Shown: piece by piece, positions 27,811 through 34,318 of the stretch
Layout: every line of letters begins with the position of its first letter
Numbering within the stretch: position 1 is the first letter of the stretch
DNA from: a virus
Taxonomy: Duplodnaviria > Caudoviricetes
DNA length: 34,318 nt
IMG/VR virus record: IMGVR_UViG_3300037461_001343
Span: 1-34,318 of that record
Strand: one strand, 5' to 3'
The notes under the pieces: model-generated
Seen by the model: only the letters and a program-made list of their open reading frames with translations
Told to the model about the DNA's origin: nothing
Databases searched by the model: none
Program-made: the position numbers and the translations under genes

Positions 27811-27850
27811 TTCATGAGAAAAAACCTTAATTCATGAGAAAAAATCTCAA
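27811..27850. repeat. 20-bp tandem repeat, possible operator
   Basis: TTCATGAGAAAAAACCTTAA / TTCATGAGAAAAAATCTCAA. Confidence 0.7.
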
Positions 27851-29409: not shown

Positions 29410-29733
29410 ATGACCGTCCGATTTTGCATCGACAATGAAACCTACCTTCTACATCGCAAGAATGGGTCTGTAAGTGTCTCTGTTTTTGCGGAAGGTTGGA
29501 TCGAGATAGCTACGGACATCGAGGAGTTTGACCATGCCTTTGGCACGCATCGTGAATCTGTGGTGGACTCTGAAAGAAGTGTTTTGGATTTGGAATATCT
29601 ATCTGTATCCGTCATCTCAGAGAACGATGAGCTTTATTATATCCAAGCACGGGATGAAATGGGTTATGACGACCTACTGAAATGGATCAAGATTCAGGCC
29701 ATAGAGAAAGCCGTTAAAGGGGGTTTTTTATGA
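29410..29733 (+). CDS. Acidic hypothetical protein
   Basis: RBS AAGGAGG then ATG 29410. Confidence 0.7.
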   Translation: MTVRFCIDNETYLLHRKNGSVSVSVFAEGWIEIATDIEEFDHAFGTHRESVVDSERSVLDLEYLSVSVISENDELYYIQARDEMGYDDLLKWIKIQAIEKAVKGGFL

Positions 29734-29912
29734 AGCGCCTTTTTAAAGAAGTGAAAATCATCGGTGTTCGAATCGAGACGGAGGACTACTTAAAACTACA
29801 GGCCTTGGCCGAGGACATCCACGAAAAGTTTGGCGACCATATGACGGTCTCGGATGTGGTGCGTGGCCTCATACATGAGGCGCTCAAGGCTCACGAAGAA
29901 GGAAGGCTATAG
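29730..29912 (+). CDS. Ribbon-helix-helix-like DNA-binding protein
   Basis: IIGVRIETEDYLKLQALA...TVSDVVRGLI strand-helix-helix pattern. Confidence 0.65.
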   Translation: MKRLFKEVKIIGVRIETEDYLKLQALAEDIHEKFGDHMTVSDVVRGLIHEALKAHEEGRL

Positions 29913-30018
29913 GGATTTTCCGTTCCAGTAGAGCTTTTCTTGCTTGTATTTATTTTCTTCGAAATAGGTTTTGTTATTTAACAGTGCTTTTTTCTCAATA
30001 GAATATACGCATTTGAAC

Positions 30019-30300
30019 CGAGAGTCTGGGACGTTGTAGTGAACTACCAACCCGCTAAAGCAGGCTTGGCTTCCAAGCCGCAGAGGCCGGCTCTTCTTTT
30101 TTGACGGGTGGTCAGGTCCTTTGGGCCCTCTGATTTTAGACTTTTTTGAGTCTTACCGTCCTGTGATCGAAGACGAGTTGCGCCTTCGATCAACTCCGTT
30201 CCGGAGTAAAAAATAGTTCCTTCTAAGAAAGATCGGGTCGCTTCTGTAACTGGCGTTTGCCGTCTGAGTACGCGAGAAGGTGGCGTACTCTTAGCGAACC
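30019..30300 (-). ncRNA. Putative TnpB-type reRNA scaffold plus 3' guide (TACAACGTCCCAGACTCTCG)
   Basis: Multiple hairpins with G-U pairs that work only on the minus strand, a GTAAGAC motif (30150-30156), and a TCAC end. The guide would be the flank 30038-30019. Confidence 0.5.
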
Positions 30301-30402
30301 GAGGGTGAATGTGACATGCTTCTTTAAAAAAAGCAAAAGGAAGATCTGGTTTCGCGGCTAACGCCGCTCGGACCTAATCCCCTCATAAATGAAGGGGGAT
30401 TA
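30039..30402 (-). mobile_element. Non-autonomous IS200/IS605-like element (PATE-like), no tnpA/tnpB
   Basis: On the minus strand the right end is GAAG-CCAAGCCTGC-TTTA-GCGGGTTGG-TAGTTCAC. A left-end-like hairpin TAATCCCCCTTCA-TTTA-TGAGGGGATTA (30375-30402) is followed by GCGGC-GTTA-GCCGC. Confidence 0.7.
30308..30336 (-). promoter_or_regulatory. Possible sigma70 promoter for the structured RNA
   Basis: TTGCTT-N17-CACATT with an extended TG. Confidence 0.35.
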
Positions 30403-30430
30403 AAGATTGGTCTTGTCTTTCTCTTTTCGC

Positions 30431-30985
30431 TCAAACTTTCACCTTGAGCCCACGGTCTCGGAGTTCCAAAAACAGCTCTTGTCTTTGCTCATCGGAATCT
30501 AGAAGAACGCGCAAAACAAACTCGTCGTCGTCACATGTTCTCTGTGAGTCCTCATTAGGATCAGGTAGCTTGGGCACAAAGTTTGGGATGAGGCCAAAAT
30601 TCCGGATGGCCAAATGCTGCAAATCAAAATCAGGCCCCAGGTTTTGCAATTCCAGATTGACCATACTCAAATCGAGATCAGCCCAGTCGTCACTGGCGTT
30701 GTCGGAGATCAGGAATGCGTATTCCTGCTCGGCATCCACGAAGTCTTGATAGACGACCGGATATTGCTCGACCCCCGCACGGATGGCCGCGAGCTTTCTC
30801 CCATGGCCCACAATGATATATCCGCTCAAATTAGATACGATGATTGGGTGACGGATACCTTGGTACTTAAAAAGTTTGACCAGCATTTCGATCTGGTCTT
30901 GGCCATGCTTGTTAGGATTTTTGGGATGGTCTTTGAGTTTATTAACATCTACCAGTTCGTCATACTTGCATTTGATTTCGATCAC
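30431..30985 (-). CDS. ParB/Srx-like N-terminal domain protein
   Basis: LKDHPKNPNKH...PIIVS...IIVGHGRKLAA...ISDN. Confidence 0.85.
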   Translation of the reverse strand: MIEIKCKYDELVDVNKLKDHPKNPNKHGQDQIEMLVKLFKYQGIRHPIIVSNLSGYIIVGHGRKLAAIRAGVEQYPVVYQDFVDAEQEYAFLISDNASDDWADLDLSMVNLELQNLGPDFDLQHLAIRNFGLIPNFVPKLPDPNEDSQRTCDDDEFVLRVLLDSDEQRQELFLELRDRGLKVKV

Positions 30986-31019
30986 GGGTCCCTCGCCTTC
31001 TCAATTGCTAAAGCCAATA

Positions 31020-31418
31020 TCAGACTTTACTAATAAAGGTTGCGCAAATGCTGCAAATAAAAATCAGATAAAGTTTTTGCAATTCGAGACTGATCATTTT
31101 CAGATCAAGATCAGCCCAGTCATCGCTGGCGTTGTCGGAGATCAGGAATGCGTATTCCTGATCTGCATCTTTGAAGTCTTGATAGACGACCGGATACTCC
31201 TTGAGACCTGCATGGAGGGCGGCAATCTTGCGTCCATGGCCGAAAACGATGTGGCCACTGAGCTTAGAGACTATGATCGGATGCCTGATGCCCTTGTACT
31301 TAAAAAGTTTGACCAATAGTTCAATTTGATCTTGGCCATGCTTGTTAGGATTTTTAGGATGATCTTTGAGTTTATTAACATCTACCAGTTCGTCATACTT
31401 GCATTTGATTTCGATCAC
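31020..31418 (-). CDS. ParB/Srx-like paralog, C-terminally frameshifted/truncated
   Basis: GTG 31418 after GAGGTG. Near-identical to 30431..30985 until a 1-nt deletion near 31070. Confidence 0.75.
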   Translation of the reverse strand: MIEIKCKYDELVDVNKLKDHPKNPNKHGQDQIELLVKLFKYKGIRHPIIVSKLSGHIVFGHGRKIAALHAGLKEYPVVYQDFKDADQEYAFLISDNASDDWADLDLKMISLELQKLYLIFICSICATFISKV

Positions 31419-31653
31419 TTCCACCTCGCACTCTGAGCTGCTCCAGCCAATAGTAAACAATCAGTTCGTATCGATTCTTAACACCGAGTTTGTGGTAGAT
31501 GAACATGACATAAGATTTGGCGGTGCTCAATTTGAACTTGATCTTGTGTGCGATTTCTTGGCAGGACAGGGCCTGGATGGCCATGAGCTCGACGAGTTCA
31601 AGCTCCCGTGGATTCAATGTGTGCCAGGCGAGTCTTCGATTTGGATCAACCAT
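31393..31653 (-). CDS. Stand-alone LuxR/GerE-type HTH regulator
   Basis: LNPRELELVELM...QEIAHK...STAKSY...IYHKLGVKNRYEL. Likely start is ATG 31653. Confidence 0.85.
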   Translation of the reverse strand: MVDPNRRLAWHTLNPRELELVELMAIQALSCQEIAHKIKFKLSTAKSYVMFIYHKLGVKNRYELIVYYWLEQLRVRGGSDRNQMQV

Positions 31654-32176
31654 ATGTAGTCCCCAAAAAGATAAAGATGGCCAGAAGGACGCCTCGAACG
31701 AATTCGTGGGCCTCCCATGCATAGTCATCGTGGCGAGCCCACAGGCGGCAAATTAGAGCGGCAAGGAAGAAGGCTAGGGTGATGGCCCAGATGAAGATCA
31801 ACACGGACCTGAGGGAGAATAGGCAGGCAGGAAGCGTGCATAATCCCCACAGCAACCCTCGGAACAAAACAGCAAGTCCTGGGGACTCTGCCAGAGGTCC
31901 GATTTGCCACCACTCTAGACGGTCTTCGTTAAGCTCTCGACTCCCGATGAAGGCTCCAAGGGGCTCTCCCCATCCAATGCTCTCACCGACTACAAAGCCC
32001 AATGAGAAAGAAAGTAGAAAAGGCCATCCATGGCCTTCGATGAGACCGAAGACGAATAGTGCATAAAGAACTTTGAAAGCCGTTTTGCCACCGGGGATGA
32101 TTCCTGAACCACGAAGTCTATCTAAGGCTCCACAGACAATTATTTTGGCAAGCGTTGGAACCAGCTGAAAATCCAT
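31646..32176 (-). CDS. Multi-pass membrane protein
   Basis: Several hydrophobic segments; overlaps the lysozyme stop region. Confidence 0.7.
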   Translation of the reverse strand: MDFQLVPTLAKIIVCGALDRLRGSGIIPGGKTAFKVLYALFVFGLIEGHGWPFLLSFSLGFVVGESIGWGEPLGAFIGSRELNEDRLEWWQIGPLAESPGLAVLFRGLLWGLCTLPACLFSLRSVLIFIWAITLAFFLAALICRLWARHDDYAWEAHEFVRGVLLAIFIFLGTTYG

Positions 32177-33900: not shown

Positions 33901-34318
33901 GTGCTGCCATTTGGAAAAATCTCATCGGACATCTATTCTTCAGAATTAGTTAAAACACTAATGAACAGTCCCACTAGGGATTATCCCTTTAATTGGAACG
34001 TCTACGTTTTTTTGTACTTGTACTATCATCGCCATTTCCCAAAGTTTTCTGAGATCGAAAATTATCCACATCGGCTCCCCTGCGGTGCTCCGATTATCCA
34101 AGTCCAAATTCGGGAAATTCAGCAAGTAACAGGGATAAAGGGAAACCGATTCAAACGAGTCATGAATGAGCTGGTGGCCAAATCAGATCTGTCAGATTTG
34201 AAAGTAACTTTTGAATCATCCAAAGTAACATTGGAATCACCACGAAACCGTCCATTGTCACAATGGAGGGCTCCATTGTTACAATTAGAAAAAATGATTG
34301 TAACAATCACGATTCCTA
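33901..34318 (+). CDS. Probable replication initiator (winged HTH), 3'-truncated by window edge; absent from ORF track
   Basis: GGAGG RBS then GTG 33901; the frame is open to the end. IREIQQVTGIKGNRFKRVMNELVAK is HTH-like and is followed by iteron-like repeats. Confidence 0.55.
   Translation, partial: MLPFGKISSDIYSSELVKTLMNSPTRDYPFNWNVYVFLYLYYHRHFPKFSEIENYPHRLPCGAPIIQVQIREIQQVTGIKGNRFKRVMNELVAKSDLSDLKVTFESSKVTLESPRNRPLSQWRAPLLQLEKMIVTITIP
34201..34309. repeat. Iteron/operator-like repeats
   Basis: AAAGTAAC..T.GAATCA at 34201 and 34222. ATTGTnACAAT palindromes within 34251-34267, 34272-34285 and 34295-34309. Confidence 0.7.

What the first reader, a model, noticed from the sequence alone, without database searches (positions are those of the whole stretch)
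30019..30402. Orphan TnpB-type guide-RNA cassette (protein-less IS200/IS605-like element) in a phage
Seen on the minus strand, in order: a left-end-like TTTA-loop hairpin, a candidate promoter, then hairpins GAGTACGC/GCGTACTC (30266-30290), ACTCCG/CGGAGT (30193-30207) and an 11-bp stem with a G-U pair (30165-30191). These are followed by a GACGG/CCGTC multi-stem containing GTAAGAC and a right end GAAG-hairpin-TCAC. GAAG/TCAC obeys the same guide/cleavage pairing as IS608 GAAT/TCAA. Established: TnpB reRNAs end at the right end and use the flank as guide. No tnpA or tnpB is in the window. Inference: an intact, separately transcribed guide (TACAACGTCCCAGACTCTCG) that could program a host or phage TnpB/TldR in trans, or else a mobilisable PATE.
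Basis: partly seen in the sequence, partly recalled or inferred. Interest (0 to 1): 0.8.

Follow-up and report, generated by a model that had tools for sequence, protein, structure and literature searches.

The report
Gene-less TnpB transposon relic in phage
This 377-base stretch of a wetland phage is a jumping gene that has lost both its protein genes but keeps both ends and the folded guide-RNA scaffold of an identifiable DNA-cutting enzyme (TnpB); such gene-less leftovers are already known and common in phages, and this copy is likely stranded rather than a purpose-built guide.

Summary
Observation confirmed; the trans-guide reading is not shown. Window 30415-30039 (minus strand) is a protein-less IS605 derivative: left end, a 136-nt interior of unknown origin, and a 169-nt TnpB omegaRNA (reRNA) scaffold ending at TCAC. 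Read as protein, the scaffold is 46/53 identical to the C-terminal tail of an intact 456-aa TnpB, so it is that gene's 3' end. A second, 81% identical copy in the same wetland runs matches exactly 30207-30039, carries three compensatory pairs, and continues upstream into tnpB. Stem 1, the pseudoknot and the subfamily's extra hairpins are present. Against a working cassette: the family target TTGAA (6 of 11 related loci examined) is replaced by AAAGA at this left end; the right-end stem is predicted to misfold; the promoter is below chance level; no target, empty allele or RNA data were found. The GAGTACGC hairpin lies outside the scaffold, in an unexplained three-way junction. Gene-less omegaRNA elements (PATEs, standalone omegaRNAs) are published and common in viral contigs, and this scan has noted them in other phages. 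New member of a known kind; interest 0.2.

The parts
30416..30420 (-). Position of the left target/TAM: reads AAAGA where the family has TTGAA
   Evidence: TTGAA|C..12-14 nt..CA(A/T)T-hairpin in L158, L159, L160, L161, L163, L165; window has the same 13-nt spacing with AAAGA and TAAT
30344..30415 (-). IS605 left end: 13-nt spacer, DNA guide TAAT (30402-30399), TTTA-loop hairpin (30398-30379), second hairpin (30367-30354)
   Evidence: contigs in runs X2 and X4 match 30344-30401 with 6 differences in 58 and diverge on both sides; L163 left end also starts CAAGACC
30308..30336 (-). Candidate promoter TTGCTT-17-CACATT with TG extension; not above chance
30233..30302 (-). Unexplained three-way junction holding the GAGTACGC/GCGTACTC hairpin; outside the scaffold and absent from both related contigs
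   Evidence: z -4.56 (boundaries chosen by eye); no match to tnpA, tnpB, Rfam, plasmids, phages or E. coli
30208..30232 (-). Weak hairpin (-3.3 kcal/mol) plus T6 directly before the scaffold
   Evidence: not called as a terminator
30039..30207 (-). TnpB omegaRNA/reRNA scaffold, 169 nt; also the last 54 codons and stop of the lost tnpB
   Evidence: 46/53 identity to the tail of TnpB P0148; second copy matches exactly this span; covariance model aligns end to end 30208-30039
30193..30207 (-). Stem 1; its GAA loop (30201-30199) can pair with TTC at 30043-30041 (pseudoknot)
   Evidence: same hairpin in 49 of 57 tnpB ends; pseudoknot-compatible in 47 of 47 and 6 of 6 family rows
30164..30192 (-). 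Subfamily-specific hairpin between stem 1 and stem 2
   Evidence: an equivalent hairpin of different sequence folds in all 5 family members examined
30103..30160 (-). Stem 2 (GACGG/CCGTC) closing the GTAAGAC hairpin (30153-30138) and the TCAG/CTGA arm
   Evidence: pair probabilities 0.92-0.98; unchanged in the second copy; A:U to G:C change at 30153/30138
30075..30102 (-). A-tract and pre-right-end hairpin; on the plus strand a terminator-like hairpin plus T-run
   Evidence: two compensatory pairs, 30092/30076 and 30089/30079 (read by hand); plus-strand terminator call at 30076-30092
30039..30073 (-). Right end: DNA guide GAAG, TTTA-loop hairpin (stem 4), terminal TCAC
   Evidence: second-copy contigs stop or diverge exactly at 30039; motif marks tnpB ends
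30019..30038 (-). Right flank, the predicted 16-20 nt guide
   Evidence: by analogy with ISDra2 (PMC8612924); no TTGAA-adjacent target found
30431..30985 (-). ParB-like gene ending 15 nt before the left end, same strand (possible read-through source)
29730..29912 (+). Last ORF of the convergent plus-strand gene block

Best explanation
The stretch is a gene-less remnant of an IS605 transposon that keeps its left end and the complete 169-nt TnpB guide-RNA scaffold at its right end, and it is likely stranded in the phage as a passenger. Shown: both ends match IS ends in other contigs, and the scaffold is the 3' end of a tnpB gene of a known subfamily (divergent tnpA/tnpB, target TTGAA). Inferred history: a full element inserted between two convergent phage gene blocks; tnpA and tnpB were then deleted up to the first base of stem 1; the TTGAA target was lost or replaced, so TnpA would no longer cut the left end by the family rule. 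Predicted behaviour: if read-through from the ParB-like gene makes the RNA, a host TnpB of this subfamily could load it and would cut only DNA reading TTGAA followed by the element's own right flank, that is an element-free allele of this site; none was seen.
For: Scaffold read as protein: 46/53 identical to residues 404-456 of P0148, a 456-aa TnpB (E 1.7e-20, the only hit among 15 candidates); the next-best family tails share at most 20 residues. RuvC D/E/D are present in 117 of 117 family proteins. A second copy in runs X1-X3 aligns to exactly 30039-30207 (31 substitutions, 2 gaps); its 30-nt upstream loose end reads KNRLAKMIS by hand translation, 8 of 9 equal to P0148 394-402. Of the 20 listed substitutions, 3 pairs are compensatory in the two-hairpin model, 1 keeps a wobble, 3 add pairs; 3 have hidden partners. 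Five plasmid members of the family fold into the same order of helices, 173-188 nt. Left ends of 6 of 11 family loci examined show TTGAA; the window does not. The guide-to-cleavage-site rule held in 21 of 24 other left ends and fails here. Gene-less ends are common: 25 of 69 viral ends with enough upstream DNA had no tnpB, 9 of those 25 keep a stem-1 hairpin. Published precedent: PMC10055086, PMC10691335, PMC3119063.
Against: The deletion stops exactly at stem 1 and the pseudoknot is intact, which fits selection on the RNA. The 136-nt interior is not recognisable tnpA or tnpB and holds a strongly folded junction that a simple deletion does not explain. The direct parent's DNA was not obtained, so the target change is judged against relatives 35-43% identical in TnpB plus one 23-nt loose end. 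One position of the left guide and target changed together (CAAT/TGAA to TAAT/AAGA), so a retargeted, still mobile end is not excluded. No empty allele was seen in 4 runs, so the insertion itself is inferred.
Confidence: 0.74

Rival explanations
1. A still mobile PATE: host TnpA moves it in trans and host TnpB uses its RNA to cut empty sites and restore it (peel-and-paste plus homing).
For: Both hairpin ends are present with family spacing; the right guide/cleavage pair GAAG/TCAC is canonical; PATEs with omegaRNA acted on in trans are described (PMC10055086).
Against: No TTGAA or guide-matching TAxA at the left junction, against 21 of 24 and 6 of 11 controls; single copy; no joint skipping the element in 4 runs; no other copy in the pattern scans.
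Confidence: 0.12
2. A domesticated phage guide: the immobilised scaffold is expressed from its own promoter behind a structured leader and programs a host TnpB (or dead derivative) against host or competitor DNA.
For: Scaffold kept to the base, pseudoknot intact; loss of the left target would fix it in place; new folded module upstream; cognate TnpB has intact catalytic residues; standalone omegaRNAs act in trans (PMC10691335).
Against: Promoter not above chance; stem 4 has pair probability 0.0 here against over 0.5 in 44 of 47 other scaffolds and 0.45-0.95 in 5 family members, a rival fold being 5.6 kcal/mol lower; no TTGAA plus seed match with fewer than 3 mismatches in 12 in 0.6 Mb of window and loci; no phage hit for the guide region; the compensatory changes may all predate loss of tnpB.
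Confidence: 0.08
3. Kept as a transcription barrier: the pre-right-end hairpin plus T-run terminates the convergent plus-strand gene block.
For: The only terminator-like sites in 29700-30700 are two plus-strand sites inside the element.
Against: 2 found against 1.3 +/- 1.3 expected; the same hairpin and A-tract are in all family members, so it is inherited, not phage-made. Not exclusive of the best explanation.
Confidence: 0.05
4. An IscB-type omegaRNA (HEARO) read on the plus strand, or an IStron remnant.
For: The same end motif occurs, reversed, in viral loci that look like iscB elements by eye (L053, L069, L084, L104).
Against: No Rfam match at gathering score or at E up to 10 to HEARO or intron families; minus strand folds better; direct tnpB homology.
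Confidence: 0.01

Closest known systems
PATEs and PATE-like omegaRNA-encoding minis of IS200/IS605 (Haloquadratum, PMC3119063; Geobacillus ISGst elements, PMC10055086)
   Same: No terminal inverted repeats, palindromic ends, no protein gene, interior deleted so that only terminal remnants persist, omegaRNA kept.
   Different: Single copy in a phage; left target motif lost; an unrelated folded module in the interior; mobility not shown.
ISDra2 TnpB reRNA/omegaRNA (PMC8612924, PMC10097598)
   Same: Overlaps the tnpB 3' end, ends at the right end, stem 1 loop GAA can pair with bases -5 to -3, TTTA tetraloop in stem 4, flank as guide.
   Different: 169 nt against a 116-nt core; extra hairpins after stem 1 and before the right end; terminal TCAC and inferred TAM TTGAA rather than TTGAT.
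Standalone omegaRNAs acting in trans (summarised in PMC10691335)
   Same: Scaffold plus guide without effector or transposase.
   Different: Those sit in the same genome as the effector and were shown to work; here the effector would be the host's and nothing is tested.
IS605 elements with divergent tnpA/tnpB on plasmids (L158 Raoultella, L159 Klebsiella, L161 Shewanella, L163 Geoalkalibacter) and metagenomic TnpB P0148
   Same: Same scaffold architecture, same left-end layout, SGTEL tail motif (82 of 117 proteins).
   Different: They keep tnpA, tnpB and TTGAA.
TldR guide RNAs in prophages (10.1101/2023.11.30.569447; search listing only)
   Same: TnpB-derived guide scaffold in a phage setting.
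   Different: TldR systems carry their own dead nuclease; none is in this record and the cognate family is catalytically intact.

Membership tests
TnpB omegaRNA/reRNA | Derives from the tnpB 3' end and right end | tested here: met
   46/53 identity to P0148 tail; second copy continues into tnpB-like codons
TnpB omegaRNA/reRNA | Stem 1 plus pseudoknot with bases -5 to -3 | tested here: met
   sequence complementarity only; reference structure PMC10097598 section 9
TnpB omegaRNA/reRNA | Stem 4 (right-end hairpin) forms in the RNA | tested here: inconclusive
   can form, but predicted probability 0.0 in the naked RNA; rival fold 5.6 kcal/mol lower
TnpB omegaRNA/reRNA | Transcribed, bound by TnpB, guides cleavage | not testable with these tools
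   no RNA run listed
IS200/IS605 PATE | Palindromic left and right ends of an IS605 family | tested here: met
IS200/IS605 PATE | No protein gene between the ends | tested here: met
   only the 54-codon tnpB tail remains
IS200/IS605 PATE | Target motif at the left junction matching the DNA guide (needed for mobility) | tested here: not met
   AAAGA instead of TTGAA; no TAxA within 35 nt. So a PATE-like remnant, not a demonstrably mobile PATE
IS200/IS605 PATE | Several copies or empty-site alleles | tested here: inconclusive
   one copy; none empty in 4 runs that appear to hold one phage strain; no sister phage found
TldR system | Adjacent RuvC-dead TnpB | tested here: not met
   no TnpB-like ORF in the record; family D/E/D intact 117 of 117
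IscB omegaRNA (HEARO) | Match to the HEARO model on the opposite strand | tested here: not met

The most novel reading that the evidence does not exclude
The phage has domesticated a host transposon's guide RNA: it fixed the element by losing the TTGAA target, kept the scaffold to the base, and put a new three-way-junction leader in front, so that it reprograms the host's own TnpB against a competitor phage or a host locus without carrying any protein.
Probability: 0.08. Interest if true: 0.75.

Novelty: new member of a known kind. Interest (0 to 1): 0.2.

Why it matters
As most likely read, it is one more gene-less IS605 remnant and matters little. Its small value is practical: the cognate nuclease (P0148), the scaffold boundaries and a predicted TAM (TTGAA; no paper held all of TnpB, TTGAA, TAM, IS605) are now defined, so whether a phage-borne orphan scaffold can program a host TnpB is directly testable. 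If it were a domesticated guide, it would be a protein-free way for a phage to take over a host RNA-guided nuclease; I saw no such case in the listings (titles and abstract starts only).

Tried and rejected
No RNA holder listed: no evidence either way on expression. Rfam: nothing at gathering score in the window; only chance-level hits at E up to 10. BLASTN of the element against phages and plasmids: one 41-nt hit at E 0.1, otherwise none; interior against plasmids and E. coli: none. Pattern scans with no hit: viral contigs, genomes, metagenomes. Sister phages by ParB or terminase: none confirmed, so no empty allele could be examined. P0148 in viral contigs: none. Element or P0148 in samples of two unrelated phyla: 1 chance hit in 151 genomes, 0 of 151; these are not the likely host. 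Interior as decayed tnpA: best nucleotide alignment reached by 20 of 200 shuffles, others by more; as decayed tnpB: 157 and 165 of 300 shuffles; phmmer of the 109-aa frame over 1.84 billion representatives gave one repetitive protein at E 4.9e-4. Self-target: best look-alike at window 622 (CTGAA, 2 mismatches at seed positions 4-5), judged chance. Covariance-model score alone (41.5 bits) does not discriminate, since IscB-like and scaffold-less ends score 33-45; only its boundary was used. Pair counts on the six-row family alignment were limited to stem 1 and the pseudoknot because the middle is out of register. Host not identified; one TnpB cluster 51% identical to P0148 has a Pseudobdellovibrionaceae member, a weak hint only.

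Full report
Setting. The window is a whole virus record, linear, about 89% complete, with siphovirus-like head and tail genes on the plus strand up to 29912 and a minus-strand block ending in a ParB-like gene at 30431. The finding lies in the 518-nt gap between these convergent blocks. There is no tnpB or tnpA in the record. The host is unknown. The DNA is in four wetland metagenome runs, two of which may be its source.

Observation. Only 1 of 298 tiles of 69 nt across the phage reached z -4.5, and it lies in the scaffold. The promoter is not supported.

The right end is real. A pattern for GAAGCC-hairpin-GGTAGTTCAC gave 33 genome loci and 123 viral loci (11 of 64 parts scanned, about 720 estimated). 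Of the 123 viral ends, 54 had under 1.5 kb upstream and were dropped; of 69, 41 had a full tnpB, 3 a part and 25 none; 9 of the 25 keep a stem-1 hairpin. So gene-less ends are common in viral contigs. Of 57 non-redundant tnpB-adjacent ends, 49 begin with a hairpin of the GGAAC type; the window has it at 30207-30193, against 0.55% of random phage windows. A covariance model from 47 of the 49 aligns end to end with 30208-30039; its 41.5 bits are no higher than scaffold-less controls (33-45 bits), so I use only the boundary.

Boundaries from a second copy. At 80% likeness, contigs in runs X1-X3 align to exactly 30039-30207 with 31 substitutions and 2 gaps; in X2 and X3 the contig ends at TCAC, in X1 it goes on with another flank. 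Twenty substitutions are listed (those near the ends are not). Read by hand on the two-hairpin model, three pairs change on both sides (30153/30138, 30092/30076, 30089/30079), one becomes a wobble, three new pairs appear, stem 2 is unchanged, and three changes have unlisted partners. On the window's own minimum-energy fold, two changes near the right end would break pairs if their unlisted partners are unchanged, so comparison favours the canonical two-hairpin form. A different contig, in X2 and X4, matches only 30344-30401 (6 differences in 58) and begins at TTGAA. The interior 30343-30208 is in neither. No contig skips the element.

The cognate nuclease. The only open frame through the scaffold, searched against longer proteins, hit one of 15 candidates: P0148, a 456-aa TnpB (PF01385, PF07282), 46/53 identical from residue 404 to the stop. 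Identity starts at stem 1. The second copy's upstream loose end translates by hand to 8 of 9 of the residues just before. Catalytic D/E/D are kept in 117 of 117 family proteins. Plasmid members 35-43% identical to P0148 are IS605 elements, five of the eight fetched with an annotated divergent tnpA. Five family scaffolds of 173-188 nt fold with the same order of helices: stem 1, inserted hairpin, stem 2, GTAAGAC arm, A-tract, pre-end hairpin, right end. So the unusual-looking multi-stem is the ordinary reRNA of this subfamily. The pseudoknot described for ISDra2 (PMC10097598 section 9) is sequence-compatible here and in 47 of 47 and 6 of 6 comparison rows.

Signs of decay. Six of 11 family loci examined show TTGAA, then 12-14 nt, then CA(A/T)T and the hairpin (the script printed only TTGAA matches; two of the six are one element at two sites; the other five loci gave no such left end). 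The window has the same spacing, placing the left end at 30415, but reads AAAGA and TAAT. The guide-to-cleavage pairing rule (recalled from IS608) held in 21 of 24 other left ends and predicts TAAA here, which is absent. Excision needs matched target and guide (PMC10055086 figure legend), so the element is predicted to be immobile, and excision could not create a TTGAA-flanked target. In the RNA, stem 4 has probability 0.0 because the pre-end segment pairs with it 5.6 kcal/mol better; stem 4 forms in 44 of 47 other scaffolds and at 0.45-0.95 in five family members. Protein binding could rescue this.

Mechanism. Shown: both ends, tnpB ancestry of the scaffold, conserved structure, absence of both genes. 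Inferred: insertion, internal deletion, loss of the target. From established work (PMC8612924 passages), the flank is the guide and the TAM equals the insertion target, so the predicted target is TTGAA plus the 16-20 nt after TCAC. No such site with fewer than 3 mismatches in 12 exists in the window or 0.6 Mb of loci, and the guide region has no hit in phage records; the likely host genomes could not be searched. RNA would most simply come from read-through of the ParB-like gene 15 nt upstream; a weak hairpin and T6 just before stem 1, and antisense transcription from the plus-strand block up to the terminator-like site at 30076, would work against it. Expression is untested.

Unexplained. The 70-nt three-way junction (z -4.56, boundaries picked by eye) matches neither tnpA nor tnpB nor any Rfam family or collection searched. 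It is the one feature that keeps the domestication reading alive.

Known or new. PATEs, including remnants of divergent tnpA/tnpB elements that keep only C-terminal pieces, are described in PMC3119063 (passages); PATEs that encode omegaRNAs used in trans in PMC10055086 (passages); standalone omegaRNAs working in trans in PMC10691335 (passages). No supplements were read. Earlier notes of this scan report the same kind of element in several other phages (unchecked, not counted as support; one gave the lead to PMC10055086). It works like, and by ancestry is, a TnpB reRNA; it is PATE-like but fails the left-target test for a mobile PATE; it is not a TldR or IscB system. Verdict: new member of a known kind, interest 0.2; the domesticated trans-guide case has probability about 0.08 and would deserve 0.75.

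Noticed in passing
window 30431-30985 and 31020-31460 (-): Two tandem ParB-like paralogs, 433 nt apart, 81% identical over 300 nt; a contig in run X3 skips exactly 433 nt (30929 to 31363): a one-copy allele or an assembly collapse. The upstream copy has a short, odd C-terminus.
   Followed up: partly
window 30233-30302 (-): Three-way junction (z -4.56) of unknown origin, bounded by a 9/10 inverted repeat, sitting between two GATCTTYCTT copies 112 nt apart (30346, 30234), the first at the point where left-end homology stops. Could be an inserted piece; the repeat alone is near chance.
   Followed up: partly
window 30315-30377 (+): The plus strand through the left end reads ..KKAKGRSGFAANAART-stop, and the related left-end contig reads similarly by hand translation: possibly the last codons of a divergent tnpA. 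Not significant.
   Followed up: partly
window 30013-30017: A TTGAA lies on the plus strand right after the guide; it is not oriented as a self-target. TTGAA occurs 121 times in the window.
   Followed up: no
L094, L041, L043, L062, L089, L070, L071, L090, L036: Viral ends without tnpB that keep a stem-1 hairpin and right end; L094 is a compact left end, promoter-like stretch, scaffold, right end of about 235 nt.
   Followed up: partly
L165:1014-1135: A tnpB-only family member has a palindrome resembling a LexA box (motif recalled) just before the start codon.
   Followed up: no
L166, L167, L170: Decayed or end-only copies of the same IS605 subfamily on Pseudoalteromonas and Shewanella plasmids.
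   Followed up: partly
window 27811-27850 and 34201-34285: Short tandem 20-21 nt repeats and nested inverted repeats, possibly operators.
   Followed up: no
window 31393-31728 (-): Small LuxR/sigma-region-4 HTH protein upstream of the ParB pair.
   Followed up: no
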